A stretch of DNA of 64,000 nucleotides from Naegleria gruberi (lineage: Eukaryota): assembly GCA_000004985.1 (NCBI GenBank), contig GG738848.1; one strand, given 5' to 3'. Each line of letters opens with the position of its first letter. The stretch's first letter is position 1. This document shows, piece by piece, positions 27,401 through 48,052 of this stretch. A program made the translations under genes and the position numbers. The notes under the pieces are model-generated. The model was not told the origin of the DNA. It searched no databases and saw nothing but the letters and a program-made list of their open reading frames with translations.

Positions 27401-30400
27401 TCTTCAATTGGCAAAGCAGTGCAAAAGTAAACAAATTCACTCAAAATTGGCACACAAAGACTATTTGGAATCTCGATATAGAATTGGATATTTGGAACAA
27501 TATGGAAAACACTTGCAGTTTCTCTGTCTCTAACACAACCAAGATAGAACAATTCAAATAACAAGGAATTCATGTGCTTTGGTATTATGTTACAGAGAGC
27601 AAGATGGAAAGCAATTTCTTTTCCTTGATTTTGATTTGTTGTTTTCCAGAGTAGGCCAACTATTTCTTTCACTGTTGAATCTTCTAATACAGTTACTCTA
27701 CTGTATTTCTTCTTATTCAAATAGATATCCTTCAGGATAAATCTAGACTTTCCTGCACCAGTTCTATTGGAGGTAACACATTTGACATTGGATCCTTGGT
27801 ATGATTTCATTATATTTACAATATACTTCTTTGGAAGAGTTTTGAAGGACTTGTCAACATAGTTTGAAAATTCCAACAAGAGACGAGCATTGTTGTTATC
27901 TGAACCACCAATAAGAACTAGTTTTCCAGTATTTTCCTTTTTAGAGAGGGATGAAAGAATTTCCTGTATCTTGAGAAGCATTTTAGATTGAACAATGTAT
28001 GGAAGTTCTTGAATATTGGCAATGCAATACATGTTATCACGCTTTTCTTTCACCTTGGAGTTTAACCATCTATTCAAAATCAACTCGATATCCTCCATAT
28101 CAGTGCTAAAAGAGTTGCACAGCAAAACTTCCTCACTCAAAGGAAGTCTTCCACGTAGTGAGTATAAGGAAATGATAGCATCCATAACTTCCTTCTCCTT
28201 TTGAAGTTTGATAATCTTGAAAACTCCATCAAATGTATTTAACGAATATTTAGATTGGACATTGGTTGGCAATTCATACTGCGATTTTCTATAAGAATTT
28301 TCTCTTCTAGAAAAGATGCTTTCAATAAAGGAGCATAACTTTCTCATCTTCTCTTCAGCTGCACAATCGGTAACAAAGTCCAAATTGAGAACGGTAATGC
28401 AGTTTTCAATGTCAGACAGCTCTAGGTTATGATCACCAAGTTTAAGAATGGATAACAAATCATAGATGGATGATCTCTCAGAATCTTGTTGATATTTCTT
28501 AAGTAATTCGTAGACTCTCAAAGATTCCTTTGCTCTAAAAAGATTCATATAGTAATTTCCATTCCTCGAGTTCTCTGTTATCTTCTTCCATTTTTCTAAT
28601 TTTTCTAGTAATTCAGCATGATACTTTTGAATATATTCAGGAGAACACTCTGAAGCTCTTATGGCCTTGAAGTAGTTTTCTTGGAATTCAAAGTGAGCTT
28701 GTTTGCATAAATCCAGCAAGGATGCCTTGATATCCAACATTAGAGTAATACATCTTACAAAAAGATTAATCCTAGAATTAACATCATCCAACGTTTTGAT
28801 ATTGTCTGGTATTTCGCTCAACATTAACTTATTTCTCAACTCTACAAGTCCATCAATAGTCATAACCTGTTGTTGTAAACTTAATCTTCTTATTTGGGAG
28901 GTATTCATAATTGGATGTGATGGCATAATCTTACATAGAATGACACTAGGATCAGCCAAATTAAATTCATACTGTCCTCTTTCTGTAATAGCTGCAAGAT
29001 CGTAGAGAGCCTGAACACCTCCACTTCTTGTTTTCTCTTCAAACATGCTGAGGAGAAGTGTGAAATTCTTCTTCAAGTTACTCAACTGAGACAAGTCATC
29101 ATTACTAATTTCCAACTTGGTCATTGAATTCTTAAAATTTTCCAAGCTAATAAAATTAATATTTGCATGGTCAACTTGATTCGAATAGATAAAGTCAGAA
29201 ATACAATCCCTGACAACCACCAAACTTTTCAAGGATTGTAAAATCTTTACCGAGTCAGTATAACTCTTACAAATCTCTACAAGGTTATCAAATTCAGAAT
29301 TGGATTTGTAATTTAATAGCCAGTCTATAATAGAAAATCCTGTACTATCACATAGTAATTTCATGAAGGAAAGTTGATTATCGTTAAATCCTTTAAAAAA
29401 TCTAGTAAACAAGAGTAGGTTAAAGTTACTCTTTTGGTCTTCAAACATTGCCAATGTTTGGCTTTCAAGCATACTTTGTTGATTGAGAGTGTTGGACTCT
29501 TTCTTTAATTGAATATAATCAGTGTCTTTCTTTAAATCAATAGTAAAGTACGGCTCAAAATGTTCAACTAATAAGAGAAGAGAAGGTAAATAGGATCTAT
29601 AGAGATTAATCTTTTCGAAGCTATTGATAATATTCAACCTCTTGGATACCCATTCAAGATCTTCCTTGTTAGGAGTTCTATCTGACGATTTTCCATTAAA
29701 GGTCATTCTCACACTCAGCAACTCTTCTTGATATTGGACATTAGTGCTGGATAGTAAACTGTCAACTCTATTCTCATATCTACACTTTCTCAGGATTGAA
29801 TAAAACTCGTTCAATTTGATTGAGAGAGAATCGATTGACTTGTAAAATCCCAGCCACTTATTCTTTACATCTGGAACCAACTTATTCTTGATAGAATCGA
29901 TGGTGTGTTTTTCATTATTGGAAGCTTTTGTGTAGAGATCCCTCCACAAAACAAGGAAAAACTCTGAGGTTCTCAACTCGTAGAAGAAAGCCAACTCTTC
30001 AAATCCAAATGGAATGAGCTCGGATACTTGCTTTTGAATCTTTTTAAATACCATTTCTCCCATATTTCTTCTAATTTTGATGATGGTATCTAACACTAGA
30101 CTAGTATCAAAAAAGTTTGGATCATCAGCAAACATGGTCAAGAAATTCTGGGCTGCATCAAGAGTAGTCTTGAAAGAAAGCAACTCTTGTCTCAATTGTT
30201 TTACATGAGATTCATTGAATCCAACATCTCCCATCAAGTATACCAATTTCATGAACTGAGCTTCGTGTTTCAAGACCATGTGAAGAGTTGATATGGTGCA
30301 TGTCTTGTCCAATAATTGGAACACAAGTTTGAAGTAAATGTCCATCAGGGCGGAAACTTCTGTTTGGATCTTGGTAAAGTTCTCATTGCCCGAATTCTTT

Positions 30401-33072
30401 TCAGTATTCTTGATAAACTTGAAAAAGTGGTAGCACAGAGGATTTTTAACGATGGTCTCATAGCTTTGTTGTAAGTTAGAAGACAATAGCAATGTCTTTA
30501 GGAAAACCAAACTAATGTCCTCATCTACAACATGAGTAATAATCTCGAACAGTAGGACGGCCTCCTTGCTGGTTGCACTCTGAGTGATGAATTGGCAACA
30601 CTTATCAATAATGTAACTCTTCAGAGTGTTGGAAAACATGCTTCCCTTGAATCTTCCCATAAATTCTATATATTCAAAAGCAGAGAGGGAAACAAAGAAT
30701 GGTGTCAACATTAATTCGTCAAGCAAGACATGTACATATTCCTTCAAAAAGTTTAACTTGACCAATCTATCAATAAAGAGTAGGAAATTCTCTAACTTCA
30801 TTGTGTTCTGTTGACTTTGAAGAAGGAACAAGAGTGAGGTGGAATTTCTTTTTGATTGGCTGCTGGTGACTTCTTTAGAATCACTTGACTCCACAATTCT
30901 GATGTTGTGGGTAAAGATGTGAATGAGCCAACGTTTTGTTCCATCAAATAATCTGAAGTATCCTTGGATTGAATTGGCTTGATTGATGTTCATTTGAATA
31001 TTTTCTAATAGATTGGCAATCTCATTCAAATCATTTTCGGTATTGATTTCTGCAACCACTGGAGATTGAATCATACAATAAATAATCTCTTCATTTGGGA
31101 GCAAGTTACACATTTGAAATATGGTATCCAAGTCTCTTCTAGTGTTAACCAAATCTGAATTAAAGCTCTGAAGTTGATACCTGTTATTGAGTTCCTTGAT
31201 CTTTTTCTTTAAACATTGAAAAACTGTTGATCTGATCTTTTGTGAATTGTCATGATAAATTAATGAATGGTCCTTCATCTTCTTTATCAATGCCAAGAGA
31301 GATTGGAAGCTTGGAGCATTTGAAATTAATCTTTGAATATCTAGAGAAATTTTCTTTTCCTTCTCTGAATTAAAAATTTCCTTCTCAAAAACTTCATTCA
31401 TTTGCTCAATATTTTCACAACTTGTATAGTCAATCATGTTTTCAGAGGAATTCTTTTCAGAGCTGAATAATTCTTCGTCAGATGAAGAGTTTGAATCAGA
31501 TGTTACAACATCTTCCTCTAGAATAGGTTTTGATTTGACTTTTGGAAGTTGTTTTGGAGAAGCTGTAATCATTCTATCCCTTGAACGAGCATCCTTCTCA
31601 GAGGGAGAACTTGGTGGAGTATTTGGCGATTGATATCCAGTCGTGTTATTATTGTTATTGGAAGGAAATGGATGAAATTGATTTCCAGCCACTGTAGTTG
31701 GTGTATTAGATCCAAAATATCCACTATAATCCTCCATAGATGTACTAGTTGTGTTGGTAGAGATGGATCCAGTTGTGGAAATTTCAATTTCCTCCTCACT
31801 TGTTGTGTAAATAAATGGAATATTCATATCTAGGTTATGAGTGAAAGAACCCTTAAATGATCCACTACTACTCGTTGATGAGAACATTTTGATTGGAAGT
31901 GTCGATTGTTGATGGCCACTGTGCAATAAGCTGTCTCCAAAAATACCCTCTCCACTGTGTTGCATTCCCTGTGATGATGTTGGGAATATAAATCCACTAT
32001 TGTCACTGTCCAATAAATCTTCCATCGATTGTTCAATAGAGGAGAGTAAATCCTCAGCAATAATGGTATCTTTCTTTTCTGAATTATTGTCAAGTGATTT
32101 TTGCTTCATTTTGTGACGTTTCACAACAGAAGGAGCAAGAGCAAATGTTGGAGATTCTAGAGATGGATACTCTTCCTCATCATAGAATTCATCATATCGA
32201 TCATGATGATTCTCATCGAGGAGAGAAAATGAATTGATAGAATTTGTGGTTGTCTGATTCAATAATGGATTATTTGCTGTGAAAGACAAGGAAGAAGAAC
32301 TCGAGCCACTTTTTCTCAATTTTTTCTTTCTCTCACTTGAAAAGGTTCCTCCTCCACTGCCACTAACATTGATAAGACCATCATCTGATAAAGTATCCTT
32401 CCTGAATGCAGGTGGAGAATGTGGTGACTTGATGGATTCATTCTCTCCCAATTGAATGTTTGCTCTTCCTTGATTGATGGCAAGATTGGGTATTGCCTTA
32501 TTGTTTGGACTTGAATTGTTACTACCACTGCTGCTGCTGCTACTAGAGTTATTACTATTGACAGAATTTGTGCTGTTATTATAACTGTTTTTGAAGGGTG
32601 TGTTGGTAGTGTTGGAGCTTGATGCTCCTTTTCCGAATTTTGAAAAGATGGTTTCATCATCATCGTCCAAAATTACTCCACTCTTTGAGATGCCTGAAGA
32701 ACCAGAATTTGAAATGATAGATGAAGTATAATTGAATCTGGAAATGGAATAGATTGAGTTTTGAGAAGTGGTTGATTGTTTGTTGCTATTGTTTGGAGGT
32801 GTTGATGATGGTTTGGTTCCTGATGTTGGTAATGTTGGTGGAGGTGAATTGCTACTACTCGTGCTACTACCATTCGATGAATTGCCACTACTACTACTAT
32901 TATTAGTAACTGATGAAGATTGTTGTTGATTATTACCAGTTGCTGCAAATCTATTGAAAAGTTGATTATTTACATGAGTTTGAATGGGAGTTGGGAGAGG
33001 TTTCTTTGTGGGAGTGGAAGGTAGAGCCGTTGCAGGAGGCTTTTTAGTATTACTATTGTTAAATTGATGCAT
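18424..33072 (-). CDS. Giant (about 4,880 aa) intronless P-loop NTPase with a C-terminal RZ-type zinc finger; RNF213 (mysterin)-like
   Basis: A single uninterrupted 14.6-kb ORF; the first ATG is at 33072. About 520 aa of N-terminal Ser/Asn/Thr low complexity. At least three Walker-A sites (NRTGAGKSRFI; CGDSGVGKSELTKYL; INGKSGSSKSLSLEIL). RZ finger WYKCANNHVYVVDSCGYPTEFAMCPECGLPIGGFDHVPHF about 800 aa from the C-terminus. I found no C3HC4 RING. TAA stop at 18424-18426. Confidence 0.8.
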   Translation of the reverse strand: MHQFNNSNTKKPPATALPSTPTKKPLPTPIQTHVNNQLFNRFAATGNNQQQSSSVTNNSSSSGNSSNGSSTSSSNSPPPTLPTSGTKPSSTPPNNSNKQSTTSQNSIYSISRFNYTSSIISNSGSSGISKSGVILDDDDETIFSKFGKGASSSNTTNTPFKNSYNNSTNSVNSNNSSSSSSSGSNNSSPNNKAIPNLAINQGRANIQLGENESIKSPHSPPAFRKDTLSDDGLINVSGSGGGTFSSERKKKLRKSGSSSSSLSFTANNPLLNQTTTNSINSFSLLDENHHDRYDEFYDEEEYPSLESPTFALAPSVVKRHKMKQKSLDNNSEKKDTIIAEDLLSSIEQSMEDLLDSDNSGFIFPTSSQGMQHSGEGIFGDSLLHSGHQQSTLPIKMFSSTSSSGSFKGSFTHNLDMNIPFIYTTSEEEIEISTTGSISTNTTSTSMEDYSGYFGSNTPTTVAGNQFHPFPSNNNNNTTGYQSPNTPPSSPSEKDARSRDRMITASPKQLPKVKSKPILEEDVVTSDSNSSSDEELFSSEKNSSENMIDYTSCENIEQMNEVFEKEIFNSEKEKKISLDIQRLISNAPSFQSLLALIKKMKDHSLIYHDNSQKIRSTVFQCLKKKIKELNNRYQLQSFNSDLVNTRRDLDTIFQMCNLLPNEEIIYCMIQSPVVAEINTENDLNEIANLLENIQMNINQANSIQGYFRLFDGTKRWLIHIFTHNIRIVESSDSKEVTSSQSKRNSTSLLFLLQSQQNTMKLENFLLFIDRLVKLNFLKEYVHVLLDELMLTPFFVSLSAFEYIEFMGRFKGSMFSNTLKSYIIDKCCQFITQSATSKEAVLLFEIITHVVDEDISLVFLKTLLLSSNLQQSYETIVKNPLCYHFFKFIKNTEKNSGNENFTKIQTEVSALMDIYFKLVFQLLDKTCTISTLHMVLKHEAQFMKLVYLMGDVGFNESHVKQLRQELLSFKTTLDAAQNFLTMFADDPNFFDTSLVLDTIIKIRRNMGEMVFKKIQKQVSELIPFGFEELAFFYELRTSEFFLVLWRDLYTKASNNEKHTIDSIKNKLVPDVKNKWLGFYKSIDSLSIKLNEFYSILRKCRYENRVDSLLSSTNVQYQEELLSVRMTFNGKSSDRTPNKEDLEWVSKRLNIINSFEKINLYRSYLPSLLLLVEHFEPYFTIDLKKDTDYIQLKKESNTLNQQSMLESQTLAMFEDQKSNFNLLLFTRFFKGFNDNQLSFMKLLCDSTGFSIIDWLLNYKSNSEFDNLVEICKSYTDSVKILQSLKSLVVVRDCISDFIYSNQVDHANINFISLENFKNSMTKLEISNDDLSQLSNLKKNFTLLLSMFEEKTRSGGVQALYDLAAITERGQYEFNLADPSVILCKIMPSHPIMNTSQIRRLSLQQQVMTIDGLVELRNKLMLSEIPDNIKTLDDVNSRINLFVRCITLMLDIKASLLDLCKQAHFEFQENYFKAIRASECSPEYIQKYHAELLEKLEKWKKITENSRNGNYYMNLFRAKESLRVYELLKKYQQDSERSSIYDLLSILKLGDHNLELSDIENCITVLNLDFVTDCAAEEKMRKLCSFIESIFSRRENSYRKSQYELPTNVQSKYSLNTFDGVFKIIKLQKEKEVMDAIISLYSLRGRLPLSEEVLLCNSFSTDMEDIELILNRWLNSKVKEKRDNMYCIANIQELPYIVQSKMLLKIQEILSSLSKKENTGKLVLIGGSDNNNARLLLEFSNYVDKSFKTLPKKYIVNIMKSYQGSNVKCVTSNRTGAGKSRFILKDIYLNKKKYSRVTVLEDSTVKEIVGLLWKTTNQNQGKEIAFHLALCNIIPKHMNSLLFELFYLGCVRDRETASVFHIVPNIQFYIEIPNSLCVPILSEFVYFCTALPIEEITTDESSLELVNYELINMEDDSIDIMCTDDNKVQYVCKFLKAFEENVFKNAAPSVPDFDPVKAPDLSLKACFKLLCKYTGFKPDNASFSVVNNFVRFLYGQFLSTSRYVCFKNCVMEGSMQLFKHAMIDLMIKSARDLTAISVEKDFIISLAKKYEGKPYTEILLLQYVEMFEHRLSKWEEQASQHPLVVFYRSNINEITGIDLIGINTDKLELNEELKYSLSCNGIDLETPRDLSHDRAQEIIRNVAGLKQDETNEKKISNNYVLTVDNLSKVLMIYHKMKYNLPTILCGDSGVGKSELTKYLCSVLGIKLKRFAVNEGHTSNDILNWLNPLIAEARLNPKKEIIAFFDKVNTSNNLGLFKELICDNCVHNKVLPRNLKIVASCNPYRLRRYAGTDIEYGSSGQKSDILKDNIRALQRTTGLDIQVFSQCLIYKVYPMPVSILDHVFNFGSLNPIIEQLYIRAILLMEINVEDIGKSGLFFDCFTELIFASQSFIRKVYMERSAVNLRDVKRCINLFKSFYQSLSKRNGIDPTFFLEESNFIIKNSIILSLGHCYYHRLSSKRDEFVKELEDLFTSSRSKIASYFSYQKGDFINTLTEEQRYYTMHLNIPKGVALNHALRENIFMTLVCVLNRIPIFINGKSGSSKSLSLEILSTNLNGTASVNSFLRSLPSLEIFTYQCSQISTPESVKSCFESAKRYQKNSPNSIAIVLLNEVGLLEHSSSHPLKVVNKELEEDCSVSVIGLSNWTLDPNLINRAVYLTRPSPSTFELKTTLSGIVNSVHLDSTLYSLAKAYHDVYNGQQRKDFFGLRDFYHTVKFINRNFDGTLSPELLTDALARNFGGSNNEEFLRVLNIFFSCVGMNIISNRKSKLDYISENLNDTKARHLMLLTKNNAALSILFSEFKQLLAYDKAEVVFGPNFPNSTKELQVCMDIQRIKNAMSTGKTVVLVNCEQLYESLYDLFNLQYIEYDENRVVGISLGTYSRICSVHKNFRVIVIVDQDDAYSRLAKPLLNRFEKQTLHRDDLFDKSASVNVKNLCSRLQSWVKTTFGDDEKPFVNTHKSLLQSLVLSLDTKQIEDPSLHDYLLDICKNALLWITTADAVVRMSSINNSRTREYLKTYFEKQEHRDLPHLLHFLLGSLQEQSQNGLSSNSLIYYGYFQLCLLTYSSVSINIDNLIQASREIGASIEYHSVVSMAELKSEMELIELVKQFFGKKITSANGQHLLVLQCENMNLDLLNQTKFIIQKHRKCISPSESVGKNILLLINVVPGKSINSQHLIEFDIPWKFAFIDEIRPTETTIYEILNRPFTEQIQTTNVRQVIKSNFRTSLAMLRKFNTKINDITLLISRTNELIDSDECWKVINKKVLEICHDYFSQNQINFYSTYVANHINEYFLVVNTYHSAIQYCVERILIKSFTFLLAEIDRNDNLRLFFEYKSTNRTEGTNLWIKLLDDLKRPSVNHMLTRNEQTISSMAELLRWKPIEVKSDGNNNRIFQARYPFSYEVCRNLHSWRSVCESSRLGVYEALQKHIDMIYPFMNNLPREYSEFFLYDYMCICGVQCTVLTNEVQYEIIKKMLDADPSEGSNIAKILSFYWRQERRLQSYYVLFETFPKSVLQRKFLQKLLVPSLRISSIEEIDMLLFSVIYHNLDPRNIETSHDITVANQRRNIWVKTLTDIKSPVEVLITLIHSTTINLTGGPRSSMLKNIGYIHEKWQKLQFYKEYLQEIAIPLGIVREISMILWQNMKTKSLSSQSSLDLILYFLDLVNKIGDNIQNDKTNQSDESRKKTNITRFFEMFTAKFLVRRIGKEDDIEKPLVGALMGLIKGENEKFNQLMKQATQNLKVSILKKLLLNKNTKPLVNEELKEIFKVELSPKTESLDQSTLISYLSIYESVLQNIPEEQLSKLLESVSDNFVDVASWKDIIKDVHLLAAIRCAMSTFSKRLILVVERGDSIRDFISSSPIARQLLSLFERPNFSFLKMVLLRLVVERKGRVFLLKTFRSRASPQFPWVSSLLQGFKYTDNIPQNVLMHVLNGLEELASCVDMIMSLRQQGDYNSKTESIIKLKASLEAIINTGQQIDIHSLKKLCYLAVVDKCYLSYCSENSNKDKFTKILTSEDEVNTQSCPIDITKLKNFLLKHVLRDDKEVHMTIKFASNAFNEDSFFFLNENTTLENLTLVHVIHHICSVALSNYVTDQFWWLLLFDPSSLKDKYLPSVTDDARTQVINTIDNGTVSWYKCANNHVYVVDSCGYPTEFAMCPECGLPIGGFDHVPHFSNDKIKQDEDIAPTGYAVYEHFKERDLAATVREISPVSFRIIRLIIHSLLLVGNSIFPEREEEYRQVFHKTMSSVDNLNEFLLGHIKNDWSILCELLGGQNEEKASVLLFNILEFFSYSSKQLETKKRTNPKLPYTSRDISTKAGRSGWETHFNGCVTMITENAAKKYQLYYKQLDSIQKKGNDVITNILLFSSAGAPQELKQPILPLSDPISQIWNIKPPITYDQFKSYFIADKAERKYPILSLFIRNEHLLYPTRYIPHVVKWQKLVTNTFSRRIDRHYARTRTVRDVFSEFMSSLSLSPIHFQLGAEKASIEKIFDGWAKSFNHSWKYIERYQCLPLPAWCKNVSMSKDTPLSFSIPDEQDEGICALALIQFLVDKHNDIIDRAGKLLNKTSTESSPIEISSRFISKHHLVSFNIEEEVMPVITDSELDQDTNKQNSYKFDYQRVEQFIVNKYLSGKPKIKLELENFTFLNETRYSSGFGQVGGPVSELKSKIKQVELPTDMKQAIVSELRGGETSLDLFQSCIRQIEECISFLQAISGSNNLEEVEKMSIIDYLQNILLVDPKVTKQTLAKSYTIIVHVKLCHLVSLWSLLENELSPGASIESSSIANKYKKVLPAELVQKLDEFKNILSPDDCSMLVSSMKELLLSYFTSETLDSEIPLKQMLEITPAIGAKSQEGNKLGDYEWLLQLSDEFKTCHLFEVYRHLSMQISSNK

Positions 33073-38940: not shown

Positions 38941-40578
38941 TTAAAACATGGATTGGTCATTTAGTTTGGTCAATTTGGGAAATAGTTTAAAATTTTCATG
39001 TTGTAGGGCACAATTCACTTTCAACAATTCCAAACTTTTAAAATTTTCTGGATTATTTGCAATGCAATTAATATTCGTAATGACAGGTTCATCCAAAGTC
39101 AATTTTGTCAATTGTTCTGTTTTCCCACATTCAGCAAATATTCTAATATCGTTACCCGAAAGTATACACCATTCCAAAGAAAGGTCAGTAATATTTGGAA
39201 GAAAACTGCAAGCCACAAGTACTTTCATATCTATTGAACAGTTTTCTAGCCTGAGACTTCTCAAATTGCATGCAAACTTATCCAGAGACCTAAAGTCAAT
39301 TCCTGAAAAGTAAGCCAAATCCAAATAAATTAAATGTTTCAAAAATTTACAATTTTCCAAATTAAAAAAGGTTTTTTGTAAAGAATCAAAATCAAGTTTT
39401 AGAGTTGTCAGATTATCAAATATTGGCTTTCTTAGGAAGCTGTTGTCTGCAAAGTAATCAAATACCTTTAGTGTCTTGATGTTTAACATGGAATCATTGT
39501 CAAATAGTTCAATAAATGTTGGAGTGACATCTTTAAAATCATTAATCACCATAACGATAGAGTTTAAATTATTCGTGGTGGGATTGTTCATCACAATTTC
39601 GTAGAGTTTAACCTCATCTGTTCTGTTAAAGAAAAATTGAAAATTCGTTAGATTATTAAATATTGGTTTTTCAAAGAAGGAAGTTGACTGTTCAGTAATA
39701 TAATTCATGCTAATGTCTAAACTGGTTAAATTTCTCAAACTTTCAACTTTCAGTAAATCTTCATCTCTTAAACAATTTCTTCCATAGTTGAGATCTTTCA
39801 GATTTTGAAATGTGGATAAAATTCTTGTGAAATATTGGGATATTCCCTGAGTAAATTCATTGAATTCAGGACTGCAAGAGTTCATATTTAAACTTGTCAA
39901 TGATTCGGCAAACTTGCTAGTCAATATCAATTCGCATCCATCTTCCTCTAAAATATTACTAGAAATATCCAAAGCTGTCAAATTTTTCAAAACTTCACTA
40001 GAAGTAAGATGCTCCACTTGAAATCTCACTAAATTAATTGATTTCAACTCTAAAACTTGCAAATTACTCAAACTTGAGCTATTTGCAATGGATTTTACCA
40101 ATTCTTCACCAAGTTTCACTTCATTCAAACGAAACCTCTTCAATTTTGGATAATTCCAAACAAAATGATCATCCTCATCCTCTTTTCTCTCATCCCCCCA
40201 TCCAGATTCTATACAAATATTAAATTTCGAGTATGAAAAATCCAACTCTTCCACATTTTCAAATTCCTTCCTCGAATTTAATAATTTAAAACTTGAATCT
40301 TTCATGTAATGTGCCTTCACTGATCTAATTTTTAAATCTCTTATTTCCACTTGATCTTTTCTTTCAAAAGCAAACAATTCTTCATGTTGCTGATCATCAT
40401 CAAAATAAATAAAAGTATTTAACATTTTCCGATTGTAGAATGAAATAGCTAAAGGAATATTCCGAGATTGTAAAAGCCACTGTTTGGACACAAGACTTGT
40501 CGAGTGGATAAGTGATGGCGTTGGAAGGAAGGAGAGAATTTCATACAGCTCATCATTATTGAATAGTTGTTGAGACAT
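38941..40578 (-). CDS. F-box / leucine-rich-repeat protein
   Basis: ATG at 40578. F-box LYEILSFLPTPSLIHSTSLVSKQWL, followed by about 15 LRR units (L..L..L.L..N.I). Confidence 0.75.
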   Translation of the reverse strand: MSQQLFNNDELYEILSFLPTPSLIHSTSLVSKQWLLQSRNIPLAISFYNRKMLNTFIYFDDDQQHEELFAFERKDQVEIRDLKIRSVKAHYMKDSSFKLLNSRKEFENVEELDFSYSKFNICIESGWGDERKEDEDDHFVWNYPKLKRFRLNEVKLGEELVKSIANSSSLSNLQVLELKSINLVRFQVEHLTSSEVLKNLTALDISSNILEEDGCELILTSKFAESLTSLNMNSCSPEFNEFTQGISQYFTRILSTFQNLKDLNYGRNCLRDEDLLKVESLRNLTSLDISMNYITEQSTSFFEKPIFNNLTNFQFFFNRTDEVKLYEIVMNNPTTNNLNSIVMVINDFKDVTPTFIELFDNDSMLNIKTLKVFDYFADNSFLRKPIFDNLTTLKLDFDSLQKTFFNLENCKFLKHLIYLDLAYFSGIDFRSLDKFACNLRSLRLENCSIDMKVLVACSFLPNITDLSLEWCILSGNDIRIFAECGKTEQLTKLTLDEPVITNINCIANNPENFKSLELLKVNCALQHENFKLFPKLTKLNDQSMF

Positions 40579-42307: not shown

Positions 42308-43519
42308 TTACATTTTCATATTTCGCTTAAATTTTCTATGAATTTTCACCAATTCTTCGCATAGACAGGCTTCCATTTCTCTGAATAAATCAAATCTCAA
42401 GAGTTGAGTTGATTCCTGCTCATGGAGTAAATAATTTTCTTGAATTTCTTTGCAAATGGAAGCAATCAAGCTCTTGCTGACATACTTGTATGGTTGTTTC
42501 TTAATGGAATCTTTTAGATAGTTTCGATAAATGGAAAGTGCTTGCTCTCTTTTAGCTTCATCATTTTGTAAAGTGTTAAATGTGATAATTTCTTGTAAAA
42601 GTGCAAAAACATGTTCAACATTTTGAACTTTGCATGCTTGTTTGAAATATTTGGACAGGTTTGGATTCCTAATTGTATCCAACATTTGCATAGTTTTGGA
42701 ATTGTTCAATGTTTCGGATACAACAGATTCTCTCTTTAGATTAATGAGTGTCATTCCCAAAACAATTGGAAGGACAATTGCCAAGCAAGCACCAACAACT
42801 GCAAGGTTAGTAGTTGAGGCATCATAGACCTTATCATCCTTTCCTCTTCCTTCATTCTTAATAGTACCAAAGAATGAACCTTGTTGTTTCGACCAGTTTC
42901 CAATAGCATTCTGATAAATTTGACCCTTGTACAAATCCTTAGCACGCGCATAATTGCCATTCTCTAACTCTTTTATAATCTCTTCCATCAATGGTAATGT
43001 ATACATATCACTTCCATTCTTACTTGCATGATTGAAATTTGTGGAATTTGTGGTTGACTCAATATTTGCAAAGATTCTATTGAGAGCTTCGACCATTTGA
43101 TCCCTGTAGACGTACCACAGCTTGGTTTCTTCATTACTTCCTGATAGTGCGCCTACTCTCACAATATCCAACAAGAGCTCACCAGTATTGAGCGCGTCAC
43201 CTCTTGCAATTAATGTTCTGACAGCTGGCTGATTGGAAATTTGAAACATGTTGATTGTTATACCGGCAACAATAATAAAAGCAGCAACATTGATCAACAA
43301 ACTAACAATTGAAAACAATCTCAAACAATCCAACTCTAAAATGCCACAACAAATTTTGACTTTGACGTTTAAAGTAGAGATGGTTGTCTTGGAGAAACGA
43401 GATGTTCTAGAGGTTTTCGAGTTGGTTCTGGATATTATGGATTTAGTTTCAGCTATTGTTGGTACAGAATTTGAAGTTGCGTCAAGAATTGCAACTTTTT
43501 TGAGTTGTTTGTTTTCCAT
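42308..43519 (-). CDS. Two-TM receptor-like protein with a C-terminal RGS-like helical domain (paralog A)
   Basis: The first ATG is near 43519; the ORF-track start is a GTG. The order is a cytosolic N-terminus, TM1 (LFSIVSLLINVAAFIIVAGITI), an extracellular domain of about 170 aa, TM2 (LAVVGACLAIVLPIVLGMTLI), then FKQACKVQNVEHVFALLQEIITF...REQALSIYRNYL...LLRFDLFREME. That last block is consistent with an RGS fold, but the call is tentative. Confidence 0.6.
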   Translation of the reverse strand: MENKQLKKVAILDATSNSVPTIAETKSIISRTNSKTSRTSRFSKTTISTLNVKVKICCGILELDCLRLFSIVSLLINVAAFIIVAGITINMFQISNQPAVRTLIARGDALNTGELLLDIVRVGALSGSNEETKLWYVYRDQMVEALNRIFANIESTTNSTNFNHASKNGSDMYTLPLMEEIIKELENGNYARAKDLYKGQIYQNAIGNWSKQQGSFFGTIKNEGRGKDDKVYDASTTNLAVVGACLAIVLPIVLGMTLINLKRESVVSETLNNSKTMQMLDTIRNPNLSKYFKQACKVQNVEHVFALLQEIITFNTLQNDEAKREQALSIYRNYLKDSIKKQPYKYVSKSLIASICKEIQENYLLHEQESTQLLRFDLFREMEACLCEELVKIHRKFKRNMKM

Positions 43520-43964
43520 TTGAGTTTTGACTTTTTTTTTTTGATTATACAGAGATTGAACAGTTGATATCAGATTTCTTCTGTTTGACACCTATTGAAA
43601 TGTTTGATAAGAATGGATTGTTTCAGAAGCTAGTTTCTCAAAGATAAGACAGTTGACTTGACTTGACAAGAAATTCGCAAATGTTCATTCCCTTCGAACA
43701 AATGAAAGTTATGAAACATAGAAGAGTCCCCACCATTTAATACACGCATGCCATTTGAACATCATCATTGGTTCCCTTGTTACAACAATTTTCAAACCAT
43801 ACCTTCTATATTTAGTAACAAGTAATGAAATCAAAAAAAAAGAGACGTTAGATTTAATATTTTTATTGTTTAGTAGGTTCCAATTTTGAGTTTGGTTCAT
43901 AGGGGGAAGGAGGCATCAAAGATAATCAAATGGCGATATTGAAAAAACAAACAGAAAAAAAAAG
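43520..43964. promoter_or_regulatory. Divergent intergenic region between the two RGS-like paralogs (putative bidirectional promoter)
   Basis: About 445 bp separate the two divergently transcribed start codons. It contains a 12-T run. Confidence 0.3.
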
Positions 43965-45431
43965 ATGACACTTGGTGCTGAAGAGACAATAGACGAAAGA
44001 TTGGACGAAAGTCCACCACAAGAAGAGTTCAACTCGGTGCAGATGCAGGAAATACAGATACAGGAAAATGCATGCAAGAAAGTGGTGACACTGATGGAAG
44101 AACATGATGGTCATGTTGTAGTGTTCAAGAGAGATTCGTCTGAAGAAGAGGATAACGATTCGTCTACTGATGTAGATTCTAATATTGCCATCGATGAATT
44201 TGAGATTGAATTACCAGATATCAGAGACGTTACTAGTTTGACATCTGCCACACCAATTTCAGCCAAAAGTCCAGTTGGAAATCCAGATCTGCCACTTGTC
44301 AGTTCACAATCTCAACAACCTAACAAGAAAAAATTCAAGATCAAATGCAATGCCTTTCGTTTGATCACATTAGCCAGTTTACTTTTCAACATTGTTGCAT
44401 TCCTTGCCCTCATTGGCCTCACAATCAATACCTATCTCAGTTCGAATAATACTTCAGTTGAGATTCTAATAGCTCGTGGTGATACGAATTATTATAATAC
44501 GGTACTTTGGGACACTGCCAAGTTGGCAGTCTTGACAAATGACAGTTCCACAACCAGTCGTTACACAACCAATGCCAAGAATTTTAGAAATTCATTGAAA
44601 AATATCCTTAATGGACTTCCGTCTGGTTTCCAATGGAAAATTTTGGATGGAACGAATGCGACCTCAAAAGCTCCAATGTTTCCTTATTATGACAGATTAT
44701 TCAATTTGACAACTGCCAAGAAATGGACAGAAGCAAGACAACTCTATTTTTCAACTGATTATCAGTCAACCTTAACACAATGGAATATTGATTATCAACA
44801 ATTTCATGAATCCATTACAAAAGTAGGTCAAGGATTAGATGACTATGTATTTGCCTCAAGTATTGCCAATTTGGTGATTATTGGTATTTCTTTGGCTATT
44901 GTTGTGCCAGTAATTGTCTTTGTTTTCGTATTGATGGTTAGAAAGGATGGAATGGCTAAGAGTTCATTGCAATCACTCAATTCTGAAATGATTTTAGAAA
45001 CGATGAGAAATGAACAGATGAGAGAAGATTTTAAGAATCATTGTATGGCAAGTAATATGTATGAATATTACTCTATATTGGAAAAGATGGTTATTTATTC
45101 TGAAATTTGTGGTCAAATTGCAGAGTTGACTAAACATGGTAAAGCCAGTGAACAAGTTCAGTTGTTGGAAAAGACAAAGATTGAAATTGCTTTTGAAATC
45201 ATTGCTGATGTCCAAGAAAGTAATAGCTCAGTACTCGATGAAAATACACGAAACTACATTAGTTCAACCGTTGATGAAGTGAATAATTCACTGAATGAGA
45301 GAGAAGATCTTGAGCAGAATAATCTTTCACCAACTCTATTCCACGACTTGGAAAAGGAAATCCAAGATCAACTTCTTTATGTACACTATGTCTTTAAACA
45401 CCAAAACACAAAAGTAATAAACACAGTGTAA
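43965..45431 (+). CDS. Two-TM receptor-like protein with a C-terminal RGS-like helical domain (paralog B)
   Basis: ATG at 43965. Same architecture as paralog A: an acidic cytosolic N-terminus, TM1 (LITLASLLFNIVAFLALIGLTI), an ectodomain with N-glycosylation sequons, TM2 (LVIIGISLAIVVPVIVFVFVLM), then FKNHCMASNMYEYYSILEKMVIYSEI... Collinear similarity to paralog A (ILIARGD, the TM segments). Confidence 0.6.
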   Translation: MTLGAEETIDERLDESPPQEEFNSVQMQEIQIQENACKKVVTLMEEHDGHVVVFKRDSSEEEDNDSSTDVDSNIAIDEFEIELPDIRDVTSLTSATPISAKSPVGNPDLPLVSSQSQQPNKKKFKIKCNAFRLITLASLLFNIVAFLALIGLTINTYLSSNNTSVEILIARGDTNYYNTVLWDTAKLAVLTNDSSTTSRYTTNAKNFRNSLKNILNGLPSGFQWKILDGTNATSKAPMFPYYDRLFNLTTAKKWTEARQLYFSTDYQSTLTQWNIDYQQFHESITKVGQGLDDYVFASSIANLVIIGISLAIVVPVIVFVFVLMVRKDGMAKSSLQSLNSEMILETMRNEQMREDFKNHCMASNMYEYYSILEKMVIYSEICGQIAELTKHGKASEQVQLLEKTKIEIAFEIIADVQESNSSVLDENTRNYISSTVDEVNNSLNEREDLEQNNLSPTLFHDLEKEIQDQLLYVHYVFKHQNTKVINTV

Positions 45432-45696: not shown

Positions 45697-47469
45697 TCAT
45701 TCATTGCAAGAGTAATAATATCTGGAAATACTGAAGGTACCTAATGATGCTACATTATCATGGGAATCATAAAACTCTTTGATAGACCTGTGATCGGCAG
45801 CTTGAATGTCACCATTAGGTCTTGGGTCTGTATTTGTTTCAACCACCACATATTTCAATGTTTTTGATACTTGACTCAATCTAGATGTGAATTCAGTCAT
45901 ATTTAACCATCCATTTGTGTGTCTTGAATTGTAATCAAATACAATATCAATATTATACAGCTGTTTGAGAAAATCTATTTGATGAAATAGATATTCATTT
46001 TCATGAAATCCTGATAAGACCAGATATTTCAAGTTAGGCATAACTTTGCATGATAACATGGATTCTAAAATTGTTCTACTGGTTTTTCCTATTTTCATTA
46101 CTGATTCATTATCTCTATACCCATCATCATCTTCAACAACGATTCTCAAATATTTCACTCCTGGAAATGTACATCCATTGAAAAATGAACCCCACCTATT
46201 CTGAGGATGCTTACTGTATGCGCTTAAATTATTATATTCAATGGAAAGAAATCTGATATTTGAAGGGAATTCGAAATCTTTCAAAGGATCCAAATAAAGA
46301 AGATTGATTAAACTTAGGCATATTGATCCTAACAATCTTTCCTTCAATTCGTTTAGGTTAACAGTTTCGTCTATCTCCTTATTAGTTGATTCCTTTTCTT
46401 CATCAATTTGCAAATTTGTCTCAACGTTGTCTCCATTGGAAACTTGAGTAAAGTCTTCATTTTTCAGTAATAGTAATAGAGGTGAGGCCAAAAGAGAGTA
46501 AACGTTCCAATAGGAAAGTAAGGCAATTGTCAAAAGGCCGGCATACATTATTCCATCATTGCTTTGAATATTTCTTGATAGTTCTTTGGGATGCATTCCT
46601 GTGAATGGCATTTGTTTTTCAATATTCTTTACAAAATATTCCCAACCAATAGATGATTCAATTCTAATTCCAAGACTTTTTCCGCTCTGTTTCCTTCCAA
46701 TAACTACACTTTTAACCCTTGATGAGAATGACTTGATAGGCCAGTTCTCGACATGGTTTTCAGAAAGTAGGAAATTCTCTCCAACAGACCAATAGTCAGA
46801 CAAAGATTCTGTATGCATGTATTTGTACATTTCAAGTGAGAGCATTAGTGACTGTGTGAGAAACATTTCAAAAGCATGCTCCTTATTTTTGTAATATAGC
46901 TCATAATCCTCAAATGAAATGTTAAATCTATTCAATCTTGATTGAATCATCTCCTTACAAGCATCCTCATCACAATAATCATTCATATGCAATGGATCTG
47001 TAATAATACTGCTTATTGTATCAAAATCCAGTTTTTGACTTGTTTTTCCTCTCTCAATAGCTCCAATCATTACCTCAAGTCGAAGAGCTTCATCCATCTC
47101 AGTGGTATTCAAATCTCCTTGGCACAAATCCAAAGAATCAAAAGAGTTTGTTCTAATCCAGTACATGATTTTCTGATGAAAAACAAATCCTTTCAACCAA
47201 AACCTCTCAAAAGCCTCATCTCCATTCCCCACTATCATTTCCCTCAACCTTCTCGTAATGGATCCGAATCGGATCACTGATTTAATATTTTCAAAAGGTG
47301 GTATGTAATTTTCTACCTGACTAACCAATCTCATATCCACCCTATCATCATGTAACCTATCGAGATCACCAACCAGATACGAAATAATCTCCAAAATAAG
47401 TTCCTTCGGTATTGATTGAAAATTGTAAGTCGAATAATCTCTTTCTAAATATCTTTGATTTGATATCAT
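45697..47469 (-). CDS. F-box / LRR-like protein
   Basis: The first ATG is at 47469 (MISNQRYLERDY...). F-box IPKELILEIISYLVGDLDRL. The C-terminal half has irregular LRR-like units (LKYLVLSGF, NIRFLSIEYNNL). Confidence 0.7.
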   Translation of the reverse strand: MISNQRYLERDYSTYNFQSIPKELILEIISYLVGDLDRLHDDRVDMRLVSQVENYIPPFENIKSVIRFGSITRRLREMIVGNGDEAFERFWLKGFVFHQKIMYWIRTNSFDSLDLCQGDLNTTEMDEALRLEVMIGAIERGKTSQKLDFDTISSIITDPLHMNDYCDEDACKEMIQSRLNRFNISFEDYELYYKNKEHAFEMFLTQSLMLSLEMYKYMHTESLSDYWSVGENFLLSENHVENWPIKSFSSRVKSVVIGRKQSGKSLGIRIESSIGWEYFVKNIEKQMPFTGMHPKELSRNIQSNDGIMYAGLLTIALLSYWNVYSLLASPLLLLLKNEDFTQVSNGDNVETNLQIDEEKESTNKEIDETVNLNELKERLLGSICLSLINLLYLDPLKDFEFPSNIRFLSIEYNNLSAYSKHPQNRWGSFFNGCTFPGVKYLRIVVEDDDGYRDNESVMKIGKTSRTILESMLSCKVMPNLKYLVLSGFHENEYLFHQIDFLKQLYNIDIVFDYNSRHTNGWLNMTEFTSRLSQVSKTLKYVVVETNTDPRPNGDIQAADHRSIKEFYDSHDNVASLGTFSISRYYYSCNE

Positions 47470-47620: not shown

Positions 47621-48052
47621 ATGCCACCTTATTCCCTTCACGATAATCAAGTCTCTACCTCTTCATCATCAGAAAGGAGAAATATTGCTAGTATCGGAGT
47701 GTTGGAACATCGTGTTAATTGTATTATTGGAGTGAATCCAGAGGAGAGAGTCAATACACAAGATATTCTGATTGATATTGAAGTACAATATGATATTAGT
47801 CAAGCTGCTGCATCGGACAATGTTGTGGATACGTTCAGTTATGTGGATTTGAGAGATTTAGCAACAGAATTGGCTACTACGAGAAAGTACCAATTATTGG
47901 AAACTTTCTGTGTTGAATTCATTGATAGAGTTGAGAAGGATTACATCTCCAAGGGAGTCTTGAGTTGTTTTATCCAAATTAAAAAGCCAGAAGTGATGAA
48001 AACCACCAAATACCCATACGTTGCTCTGAAGAGAAATTTTGTCCAATTCTAA
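47621..48052 (+). CDS. folB: 7,8-dihydroneopterin aldolase (FolB), stand-alone
   Basis: The first ATG is at 47621 (MPPYSL...); the ORF-track start at 47474 is a TTG. FolB colinearity: IGVLEHRVNCIIGVNPEERVNTQDILIDIEV..DISQAAASDNVVDTFSYVDL..., ...LLETFCVEFIDRV.....VLSCFIQIKKP. Confidence 0.8.
   Translation: MPPYSLHDNQVSTSSSSERRNIASIGVLEHRVNCIIGVNPEERVNTQDILIDIEVQYDISQAAASDNVVDTFSYVDLRDLATELATTRKYQLLETFCVEFIDRVEKDYISKGVLSCFIQIKKPEVMKTTKYPYVALKRNFVQF

What the first reader, a model, noticed from the sequence alone, without database searches (positions are those of the whole stretch)
42308..45431. Head-to-head pair of paralogous two-TM receptor-like genes with RGS-like tails
Two genes of 404 and 488 aa are transcribed divergently from a roughly 445-bp spacer. 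They share the same topology: a cytosolic N-terminus, TM1, an ectodomain of 150-180 aa with glycosylation sequons, TM2, and a C-terminal helical domain that resembles an RGS box in one copy and more weakly in the other. A membrane protein with an ectodomain fused directly to a G-protein GAP domain would be a compact receptor-regulator. The inverted duplication suggests co-regulation from a bidirectional promoter.
Basis: partly seen in the sequence, partly recalled or inferred. Interest (0 to 1): 0.6.

Follow-up and report, generated by a model that had tools for sequence, protein, structure and literature searches.

The report
Amoeba receptor genes: bacterial sensor plus RGS
These are two neighbouring Naegleria gruberi genes from a large amoeba-specific family that joins a bacterial-type extracellular sensor domain, through two membrane helices, to a G-protein-regulator (RGS) domain, although these two copies have lost the residues an RGS domain normally uses to switch G proteins off.

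Summary

New findings:
- They belong to a family of at least 90 clusters (50% identity). Every named member sampled comes from Naegleria or Willaertia.
- The ectodomain is homologous to an unannotated bacterial periplasmic four-helix-bundle sensor domain (hhalign 99.4%, E=1e-21). In bacteria that domain precedes histidine kinase, MCP, GGDEF, PAS and STAS modules.
- About half of the family keeps the RGS4-type Gα-contact residues. Both window genes have lost nearly all of them, so canonical GAP activity is doubtful for these two.
- The two genes are not each other's closest paralogues. No DNA similarity remains between them, and a 445-bp divergent spacer is typical for this window. This is therefore not a recent inverted duplication, and a special bidirectional promoter is untested.

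Verdict: this is a receptor-type RGS architecture (bacterial 4HB sensor, 2TM, RGS) that I did not find described. It is a new variant of the known receptor-GAP theme. The function is inferred, not shown.

The parts
42308..43519 (-). Gene A, NAEGRDRAFT_78141, 403 aa plus stop; 2TM sensor-RGS family member of the A-type subfamily
   Evidence: ORF. 100% identity and coverage to P0001. Full-family profile score 639 bits.
43325..43519 (-). Gene A cytosolic N-terminus (aa 1-65), Ser/Thr/Lys-rich, predicted disordered
   Evidence: pLDDT below 50 for aa 1-63.
43244..43318 (-). Gene A TM1 (aa about 68-92)
   Evidence: Kyte-Doolittle peak of 2.63. Helix 61-95 in the model.
42806..43243 (-). Gene A ectodomain (aa about 93-238): four-helix-bundle sensor domain with 3 N-glycosylation sequons
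42737..42805 (-). Gene A TM2 (aa about 239-261), predicted as one continuous helix (aa 200-284) running from the last ectodomain helix into the cytosol
   Evidence: Kyte-Doolittle peak of 2.65. Model helix 200-284.
42311..42697 (-). Gene A C-terminal RGS-fold domain (aa about 275-403) with a degenerate G-alpha contact surface
43520..43964 (.). 445-bp divergent intergenic spacer with A-rich leaders just upstream of both ATGs
   Evidence: Sequence. Only short A/T-run inverted matches. Spacer size is typical for the window.
43965..45431 (+). Gene B, NAEGRDRAFT_78142, 488 aa plus stop; 2TM sensor-RGS family member of the B-type subfamily
   Evidence: ORF. 100% identity and coverage to P0004. Full-family profile score 575 bits.
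43965..44360 (+). Gene B acidic, mostly low-confidence (probably disordered) cytosolic N-terminus (aa 1-132)
   Evidence: pLDDT below 50 for aa 1-25 and 36-130, with one low-confidence predicted helix at aa 20-46.
44361..44435 (+). Gene B TM1 (aa about 133-157)
   Evidence: Kyte-Doolittle peak of 2.43.
44436..44870 (+). Gene B ectodomain (aa about 158-302): four-helix-bundle sensor domain with 4-5 sequons
   Evidence: Ectodomain-only HMM score 113.7 bits. Foldseek hits to the MCP2201 ligand-binding domain (prob 0.99, TM 0.56-0.61), Vc1313, Tsr and NarQ.
44871..44939 (+). Gene B TM2 (aa about 303-325)
   Evidence: Kyte-Doolittle peak of 3.17.
44976..45416 (+). Gene B C-terminal divergent RGS-fold domain (aa about 338-484)
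   Evidence: No PF00615 hit in B itself. Aligns end to end with the RGS-positive relatives P0007 and P0008, E=1e-39 and 3e-36. Foldseek to the SNX13 RGS domain, prob 0.99, TM 0.58.

Best explanation
The window holds two adjacent but only distantly related members of a multigene family. All named members come from vahlkampfiid amoebae (Naegleria gruberi, N. fowleri, N. lovaniensis, Willaertia magna).

Architecture. Each protein has a cytosolic, mostly low-confidence (probably disordered) N-terminus and TM1. These are followed by an N-glycosylated extracellular four-helix bundle of about 145 aa, then TM2, and about 14 residues later an RGS-fold domain sitting just under the membrane. The ectodomain is homologous to a widespread bacterial periplasmic sensor domain. 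That bacterial domain has no Pfam or NCBIfam model in the copies searched. In bacteria it sits between two TM helices, upstream of histidine-kinase, chemoreceptor, diguanylate-cyclase, PAS/GAF or STAS outputs. The amoeba family is therefore a chimera of a bacterial-type transmembrane sensor module and a eukaryotic RGS output. The sensor was most parsimoniously acquired by horizontal transfer and then expanded.

Inferred mechanism for the family. A ligand binds to the extracellular bundle, which probably acts as a dimer like bacterial 4HB sensors. The signal passes along the continuous helix formed by the last bundle helix, TM2 and the linker. This changes the availability or orientation of the RGS domain. 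The protein would thus act as a ligand-controlled GTPase-accelerating 'receptor-GAP' for Naegleria's self-activating G-alpha subunits, analogous to the 7TM-RGS proteins.

The two window genes. Nearly all G-alpha contact residues are replaced, so they are most likely non-canonical. They could be poor or inactive GAPs that act as scaffolds or decoys, or as partners in heterodimers with catalytically competent family members.

Shown: gene structure, paralogy, topology signals, fold, homology of both domains, the residue substitutions, and family distribution. Inferred: surface localisation, ligand sensing, signal coupling, G-alpha targets, loss of GAP activity, and direction of transfer.

The confidence of 0.6 is a blend. 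It is about 0.9 for the architecture and the two domain homologies, and about 0.4-0.45 for the proposed mechanism and the non-catalytic reading of the two window genes.
For: Identity and paralogy.

Family size and taxa:
- 95 representatives at E<=1e-3, 74 at <=1e-10, most matching over full length.
- All named members sampled are Naegleria or Willaertia.

RGS domain:
- PF00615 is found in 54 of 98 sequences, best E=4e-15.
- The paralogues P0002 and P0003 and the relatives P0007, P0008 and P0013 exceed the gathering score.

Ectodomain:
- The same HMM scores 26 further bacterial proteins at 37-105 bits, median 55. These were found independently through bacterial sequence motifs. Reversed controls score at most 3.5 bits.
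- hhalign gives 99.4%, E=1.1e-21 over 123 columns.
- At least 132 bacterial loci across many phyla encode the domain, with diverse cytoplasmic outputs.

Extracellular location: sequon density in the ectodomain is 2.45 per 100 aa, against 1.2 expected from composition (z=10). Density is 1.13 per 100 aa in the C-terminal domain and 0 in the bacterial homologues.

Residue loss (RGS4 numbering verified against 1agr_E):
- Family majority: E87 in 42/87, N88 in 42/87, N128 in 43/83, D163 in 43/83, R167 in 42/83.
- Gene A has H, V, K, K, K at these five positions.
- Gene B has E, Y, gap, Y, V.

Biological context: Naegleria G-alpha subunits are self-activating and are deactivated by 7TM-RGS proteins (PMC9283941). 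N. gruberi has 229 RGS proteins, and TM-linked RGS proteins occur in many lineages (PMC3971589).
Against: - There is no experimental or expression data for these genes.
- The structural models are of moderate confidence (mean pLDDT 69 and 64, from 5-sequence alignments). Foldseek E-values for the full-length models are weak (0.2-1) even though probabilities are high.
- Four-helix bundles are easy to match structurally, so the sensor assignment rests mainly on the sequence-profile evidence.
- Gene A and gene B themselves do not reach the Pfam RGS gathering score.
- Loss of RGS4-type contact residues does not prove loss of G-alpha binding. rgRGS domains bind G-alpha12/13 differently.
- The mapping of the second half of the RGS domain depends on a MAFFT alignment with a one-residue shift near helix 8.
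- The direction of transfer (bacteria to amoeba) is argued from distribution only, with no phylogeny.
- I could not read Anantharaman et al. 2011 (Gene 475:63), which surveyed RGS architectures and may already mention this one.
Confidence: 0.6

Rival explanations
1. Both window proteins are fully active receptor-GAPs. Their RGS domains use a divergent interface matched to lineage-specific Naegleria G-alpha subunits, so the missing RGS4-type residues are irrelevant.
For: - The RGS fold is retained.
- The A-type and B-type subfamilies each keep conserved C-terminal positions: F379, E383, H394 and F397 are invariant in 5 sequences.
- Naegleria has 13 divergent G-alpha subunits with selective RGS pairing (PMC9283941).
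Against: - Half of the same family retains the canonical E87/N88/N128/D163/R167 set, so the ancestral interface was canonical and these copies departed from it.
- Substitutions such as N128 to K or a gap, and D163 to K or Y, change charge or remove the side chain at positions central to the RGS4-Gi-alpha1 interface. That role is established knowledge from the 1AGR complex.
Confidence: 0.2
2. The ectodomain is not a ligand sensor in the amoeba. It is only a glycosylated spacer, dimerisation or adhesion module that anchors an RGS domain at the membrane, so the protein acts as a constitutive membrane-tethered RGS.
For: - No ligand-binding residues can be identified, and no solved relative exists by sequence.
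- Many TM-RGS proteins in other lineages have no recognisable sensor (PMC3971589).
Against: - The domain is homologous to a bacterial module found only in the TM1-sensor-TM2 position of signal-transduction proteins with at least six kinds of output. That pattern is the signature of a sensor.
- The predicted continuous helix from the bundle through TM2 to the RGS domain matches the coupling geometry of bacterial 4HB receptors.
- The ectodomain has diversified extensively (12-57% identity between members in the ectodomain alignment, mostly 10-26%), as expected for ligand-specificity evolution.
Confidence: 0.2
3. The pair is an inverted tandem duplication whose two copies are co-regulated from one bidirectional promoter and work together.
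For: - The genes are head to head with a 445-bp spacer.
- The family shows other local clusters: NAEGRDRAFT_58095 and 67794 lie on one scaffold with gene-index numbers four apart. Adjacency through local duplication is therefore plausible.
- 4HB sensors work as dimers, so a co-expressed A/B heterodimer is conceivable.
Against: - A and B share only 25% identity. Each has closer relatives elsewhere in the genome and in other species: 57301 and 79971 lie on other scaffolds, and B ranks only 12th in A's BLAST hit list, self-hit included.
- No inverted DNA repeat joins the two genes.
- The spacer length is typical of divergent pairs in this compact genome.
- Co-expression was not testable here.
Confidence: 0.15
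4. The two genes are decaying, functionless members of an over-expanded family.
For: - The RGS motifs are degenerate.
- There is no significant Pfam RGS hit in B or in its paralogue P0005, which scores E=0.54.
Against: - Both ORFs are intact over 403 and 488 codons.
- Each has a paralogue at 49-54% identity that shares the same substitutions. A further A-type sequence, P0002, comes from an environmental assembly. The divergent state is therefore old and maintained.
- TM helices, the LIARGD motif and the C-terminal F/E/H/F positions are invariant across the five sequences.
Confidence: 0.08

Closest known systems
7TM-RGS receptor-GAPs (Arabidopsis AtRGS1; the 28 Naegleria fowleri 7TM-RGS proteins; Bosch et al. 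2022, PMC9283941)
   Same: - An integral membrane protein with an extracellular-facing part and a C-terminal cytosolic RGS domain.
- Found in an organism whose G-alpha subunits self-activate, so a regulated GAP can play the receptor role.
- Part of a lineage-specific expansion.
   Different: - Two TM helices instead of seven.
- The extracellular part is a discrete four-helix-bundle domain of bacterial type rather than a GPCR-like heptahelical bundle with EGF, lectin or GPS modules.
- The two window copies lack the canonical G-alpha contact residues.
Bacterial four-helix-bundle transmembrane sensors (Tar/Tsr, MCP2201, PcaY, Vc1313 chemoreceptors; NarX/NarQ, TorS, HK9, QseE kinases)
   Same: - TM1, periplasmic antiparallel helical bundle of about 125-145 aa, then TM2, with the last bundle helix continuous with TM2.
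- Direct sequence-profile homology to one bacterial sensor family that occurs with HK, MCP, GGDEF, PAS, GAF and STAS outputs.
   Different: - The output is a eukaryotic RGS domain, with no HAMP, HisKA or MCP signalling domain.
- The ectodomain has acquired N-glycosylation sequons.
- No match to the Pfam 4HB_MCP, TarH or other sensor models.
Non-GAP RGS-homology domains (axin, SNX13/14/25, GRK2, p115-RhoGEF rgRGS)
   Same: - RGS fold with the canonical switch-contact residues replaced.
- SNX25, axin and SNX13 are among the best structural matches.
- SNX13/14/25 are also two-TM, membrane-anchored RGS-homology proteins (from my own knowledge of the SNX-RGS family).
   Different: - No PX, PXA, DIX, kinase or DH-PH modules.
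- The region between the TM helices is a large sensor-type ectodomain.
- No sequence relationship beyond the RGS fold.
Bacterial extracytoplasmic sensors captured by eukaryotic signalling proteins, for example the Cache domain in a Naegleria bacterial-type adenylate cyclase and in fungal and plant histidine kinases (Upadhyay et al. 2016, PMC4822843)
   Same: A bacterial extracellular sensor domain is present in a eukaryotic membrane signalling protein, with horizontal transfer as the likely source.
   Different: In those cases the whole bacterial-type protein, sensor plus bacterial-type output, was taken over. Here the bacterial sensor is joined to a purely eukaryotic output domain (RGS) and then expanded into a large family.

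Membership tests
RGS domain (Pfam PF00615) | Profile match at or above the curated gathering score (23.9 bits) | tested here: not met
   Gene A scores 20.7 bits, E=5.8e-4. Gene B has no hit. The threshold is met by close paralogues P0002 (25.1) and P0003 (30.7), by relatives P0007, P0008 and P0013 (about 35 bits), and PF00615 matches 54 of 98 family sequences at E<=0.01. UniRef names both proteins 'RGS domain-containing protein'.
RGS domain (Pfam PF00615) | All-helical RGS-box fold | tested here: met
RGS domain (Pfam PF00615) | G-alpha switch-contact residues of catalytically active RGS boxes (RGS4 S85, E87, N88, N128, D163, S164, R167) | tested here: not met
   At these seven positions A has V, H, V, K, K, I, K, and B has M, E, Y, gap, Y, V, V. 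The family majority retains S/E/N/N/D/T/R. RGS4 numbering was verified against 1agr_E.
RGS domain (Pfam PF00615) | GTPase-accelerating activity on a G-alpha subunit | not testable with these tools
   Requires biochemical assay.
7TM-RGS receptor-GAPs (AtRGS1-like) | Seven-transmembrane N-terminal domain preceding the RGS box | tested here: not met
   Only two hydrophobic segments per protein. The models show two membrane-length helices.
Bacterial 4HB extracytoplasmic sensor domains | Location between two TM helices, with the last helix continuous with TM2 | tested here: met
   The bacterial homologues have the same layout (sequences).
Bacterial 4HB extracytoplasmic sensor domains | Antiparallel four-helix-bundle fold | tested here: met
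Bacterial 4HB extracytoplasmic sensor domains | Sequence homology to a sensor domain that combines with diverse bacterial signalling outputs | tested here: met
   Eukaryote-only, TM-free HMM against bacterial proteins: 37-105 bits for 26 of 26, reversed controls at most 3.5 bits. hhalign 99.4%, E=1.1e-21. Outputs seen: HisKA/HATPase_c with or without REC, PAS, GGDEF, GAF, STAS, MCPsignal.
Bacterial 4HB extracytoplasmic sensor domains | Match to a named Pfam or NCBIfam sensor model (4HB_MCP_1, TarH, CHASE3, PilJ, NIT and others) | tested here: not met
   No such hit in the amoeba proteins or in the sensor region of the bacterial homologues. No PDB relative by sequence.
Bacterial 4HB extracytoplasmic sensor domains | Ligand binding | not testable with these tools
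   No ligand is known for the bacterial homologues either.

The most novel reading that the evidence does not exclude
Vahlkampfiid amoebae built a new class of cell-surface receptor. They fused a horizontally acquired bacterial periplasmic four-helix-bundle sensor, together with its two flanking TM helices, directly to the eukaryotic RGS domain. The sensor belongs to a domain family with no Pfam or NCBIfam model in the copies searched. They then expanded this into dozens of paralogues. The resulting proteins would act as ligand-gated GAPs for self-activating G-alpha subunits and use the bacterial mode of transmembrane signalling along the helix that is continuous with TM2. The head-to-head pair in this window would be a catalytically dead subtype that modulates signalling, for example by heterodimerising with active members.
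Probability: 0.4. Interest if true: 0.72.

Novelty: new variant of a known kind. Interest (0 to 1): 0.55.

Why it matters
Receptor-GAPs such as AtRGS1 and the Naegleria 7TM-RGS proteins are the proposed alternative to GPCRs in organisms whose G-alpha subunits load GTP spontaneously. A second, structurally unrelated receptor-GAP design would show that eukaryotic G-protein control can be wired to prokaryotic transmembrane sensing hardware.

It would also offer a simple two-helix system for asking how an extracellular signal changes RGS activity. It adds a clear case of a bacterial sensor domain joined to a purely eukaryotic output.

In addition, it points to an unannotated, widespread bacterial sensor domain that deserves a family definition. 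Because N. fowleri has members of the family, the ectodomains are potential surface targets in a lethal pathogen.

The two window genes are probably the less informative members, since their RGS surfaces are degenerate.

Tried and rejected
1. Synteny of paralogues. The look-up of encoding contigs for P0003 and P0005 returned nothing. I therefore could not test whether A-type and B-type genes are adjacent elsewhere.
2. A solved relative of the ectodomain by sequence. The PDB profile search gave only weak TPR and de-novo-protein noise.
3. A name for the sensor domain. Pfam and NCBIfam scans of the bacterial homologues hit only cytoplasmic output domains.
4. Word-index homologue searches found only 5 close relatives. 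The exhaustive representative search was needed to find the family.
5. A global hmmalign of RGS4 to the family model misplaced the second half of RGS4 into the low-complexity insert. I replaced it with a MAFFT alignment of that half only.
6. The 5-sequence C-terminal profile alone does not detect RGS4. Only the 87-sequence profile aligns the two conserved RGS blocks, and it does so weakly (E=0.2).
7. I considered that the bacterial hits were driven by the TM helices. This is rejected because a TM-free HMM gives higher scores.
8. I looked for further family members in the window and found none.
9. I looked for a DNA-level inverted repeat or shared promoter motif in the spacer. Only A/T runs were found.
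10. Anantharaman et al. 2011 (PMC3396428) is not held in the library. Literature searches found no description of this architecture.
Full report
**What is there**

The window is Naegleria gruberi DNA, about 34% GC and densely packed with intronless ORFs.

- Gene A runs 42308-43519 on the minus strand and encodes 403 aa from its first ATG.
- Gene B runs 43965-45431 on the plus strand and encodes 488 aa.
- Both are 100% identical over full length to NAEGRDRAFT_78141 and NAEGRDRAFT_78142. UniRef labels both 'RGS domain-containing protein' by automatic annotation.
- The genes are head to head across a 445-bp spacer, 43520-43964.

**Checking the observation**

- The two proteins are homologous: BLASTP E=5e-27, 25% identity over 273 aa.
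- Each has exactly two strong hydrophobic segments. In A these lie at about 68-92 and 239-261. In B they lie at about 133-157 and 303-325.
- Basic residues flank the cytosolic sides, and about 145 aa lie between the two segments.
- Sequons fall in that loop, 3 in A and 4-5 in B.
- Pfam gives a sub-threshold RGS hit in A (20.7 bits against a gathering score of 23.9; E=5.8e-4) and none in B.

The description is therefore accurate apart from small numerical details.

**The family**

Word-index searches found only three further close relatives. These are an A-type paralogue (NAEGRDRAFT_57301, 49%), a B-type paralogue (NAEGRDRAFT_79971, 54%) and an environmental A-type sequence.

An exhaustive profile search of 1.84 billion cluster representatives found 95 hits at E<=1e-3. 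Of these, 74 were at <=1e-10, and most covered the ectodomain plus the C-terminal domain. Every named hit among the 30 sampled belongs to N. gruberi, N. lovaniensis, N. fowleri or Willaertia magna. The unnamed ones come from environmental assemblies. No function beyond 'RGS domain-containing' or 'hypothetical' is annotated.

**C-terminal domain**

- PF00615 matches 54 of the 98 sequences, best E=4e-15.
- The A-type paralogues (25.1 and 30.7 bits) and the B-like relatives P0007, P0008 and P0013 (about 35 bits) exceed the gathering score.
- B aligns with P0007 and P0008 across its whole C-terminal domain, E=1e-39 and 3e-36. B is therefore an RGS homologue by transitivity.
- The AF2 model of A has mean pLDDT 69, and about 80-89 across most of the two folded domains.
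- The model of B matches the SNX13 RGS domain with Foldseek probability 0.99.

The RGS-fold claim stands for both genes.

**Are they GAPs?**

I aligned the family to RGS4. Its sequence and numbering were checked against 1agr_E. I then read off the residues that, in the RGS4-Gi-alpha1 structure, contact the G-alpha switch regions. The roles of these residues are established knowledge from the 1AGR complex.

| RGS4 residue | Family members keeping it | Gene A | Gene B |
|---|---|---|---|
| E87 | 42/87 | H | E |
| N88 | 42/87 | V | Y |
| N128 | 43/83 | K | gap |
| D163 | 43/83 | K | Y |
| R167 | 42/83 | K | V |

 In an ungapped reading, N128 corresponds to Y in A and L in B.

Their own paralogues share these substitutions, so the divergent state is old. 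The two window genes therefore resemble non-GAP RGS-homology domains such as axin and SNX13/25 more than active RGS boxes. This is an inference from sequence, and only an assay can settle it.

**Ectodomain**

Both models predict an antiparallel helical bundle whose last helix runs unbroken through TM2 into the cytosol (A helix 200-284).

Structural matches are bacterial four-helix-bundle sensor domains:
- For B: MCP2201 (prob 0.99), Tsr, Vc1313 and NarQ.

Helical bundles match easily, so I looked for sequence evidence.

- The tail of the exhaustive search contained three bacterial proteins aligned to the region from TM1 to TM2. These were a Desulfobacterales methyl-accepting chemotaxis protein, a histidine kinase and a STAS-domain protein.
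- Profile-profile comparison gave 99.4% probability, E=1.1e-21 over 123 columns.
- A scan of one genome per bacterial species, using motifs of the bacterial proteins, found 132 confirmed loci. They span Cyanobacteria, Planctomycetota, Verrucomicrobiota, Desulfobacterota, Omnitrophota, Chloroflexota, Acidobacteriota and others.
- All 26 proteins I extracted from those loci score 37-105 bits (median 55) against the eukaryote-only HMM. Their reversed sequences score at most 3.5 bits.
- In these bacteria the domain sits between two TM helices, sometimes duplicated in tandem. It precedes HisKA/HATPase_c with or without REC, PAS, GGDEF, GAF, STAS or MCP signalling domains. That is the pattern of a promiscuous extracytoplasmic sensor.
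- No Pfam, NCBIfam or PDB sequence match covers the domain.

In the amoebae the domain carries 2.45 sequons per 100 aa. That is twice the composition-matched expectation (z=10), against 1.13 in the C-terminal domain and none in the bacterial homologues. This supports a luminal or extracellular location.

**Gene arrangement**

- Only these two family members lie in the 64-kb window. The neighbours are unrelated: an F-box/LRR-like protein, two proteins with no Pfam family match, and FolB.
- A and B are not sister genes. At least eight other cluster representatives are more similar to A than B is, and five are more similar to B than A is.
- No inverted DNA repeat links the two genes. The spacer shows only A/T runs near both start codons.
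- Divergent ORF pairs in this window are separated by 201-2995 bp, so 445 bp is unremarkable.
- Other family members also cluster locally in N. gruberi: NAEGRDRAFT_58095 and 67794 share one scaffold with gene indices four apart.

An old local duplication is the likeliest origin of the adjacency. Co-regulation is untested.

**Mechanism proposed**

Naegleria G-alpha subunits exchange nucleotide spontaneously and are switched off by 7TM-RGS proteins (PMC9283941). N. gruberi has 229 RGS proteins, and TM-linked RGS proteins are noted as of special interest (PMC3971589).

I propose that the family is a second type of receptor-GAP. Ligand binding to the dimeric extracellular bundle would be transmitted along the helix continuous with TM2, as in bacterial 4HB receptors. 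The RGS domain begins about 14 residues after TM2. This would alter its access to G-alpha-GTP.

For 78141 and 78142, the loss of contact residues suggests non-catalytic roles, such as decoy, scaffold or heterodimer partner. Domain homologies, topology signals and residue states are shown. Ligand sensing, coupling, G-alpha targets and the horizontal-transfer direction are inferred.

**Novelty**

The genes and their RGS label already exist in databases, and receptor-type and TM-linked RGS proteins are known. I did not find any description of the two-TM architecture with a bacterial-type sensor ectodomain, or of the bacterial sensor family itself.

I therefore rate this a new variant of a known kind, of moderate interest. 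The interest lies in the family-level finding. The specific pair in the window is probably a degenerate subtype.

Noticed in passing
window 18424-33072 (-): A single uninterrupted ORF of 4882 aa. Its only Pfam match is an RZ-type zinc finger (PF20173, E=3.5e-15, aa 4121-4167). That domain is known to me from giant RNF213/ZNFX1-type proteins. Found.
   Followed up: partly
L001-L080 (bacterial genome loci), e.g. L072:2321-3895, L052:2300-3520, L074:2333-3748: A widespread bacterial periplasmic helical sensor domain of about 125 aa. Conserved motifs are 'DEVLTMSARMA..TGD..W..RY', 'P.LD.AI.E' and 'G...EA...LFS.EYE..K..Y..G'. It is found with HK, PAS, GGDEF, GAF, STAS and MCP outputs in at least 132 species genomes. 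It has no Pfam, NCBIfam or PDB sequence match.
   Followed up: partly
L002, L003, L049, L067: Some bacterial proteins carry two tandem copies of this sensor domain before the second TM helix.
   Followed up: no
family members P0013, P0014, P0031 and others (not in the window): Most canonical family members have a Ser/Thr/Asn/Lys-rich low-complexity insert of about 20-100 aa inside the RGS domain. It lies between the conserved block aligning to RGS4 residues 74-102 and the block aligning to residues 110-163, in an aligned position where RGS4 has only about 7 residues. The A-type proteins lack it.
   Followed up: no
window 47621-48049 (+): A dihydroneopterin aldolase (FolB, PF02152, E=1.1e-21) lies just downstream of the neighbouring 590-aa gene.
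   Followed up: no
window 38941-40578 (-) and 45697-47469 (-): The flanking genes include proteins rich in leucine-rich-repeat-like sequence. The first has weak F-box and LRR hits, both below threshold. The second has no Pfam match.
   Followed up: no
N. gruberi scaffold of 747,259 bp (not in the window): Family members NAEGRDRAFT_58095 and NAEGRDRAFT_67794 lie on the same scaffold with EukProt gene indices 9082 and 9086. This suggests further local clusters of the family.
   Followed up: no
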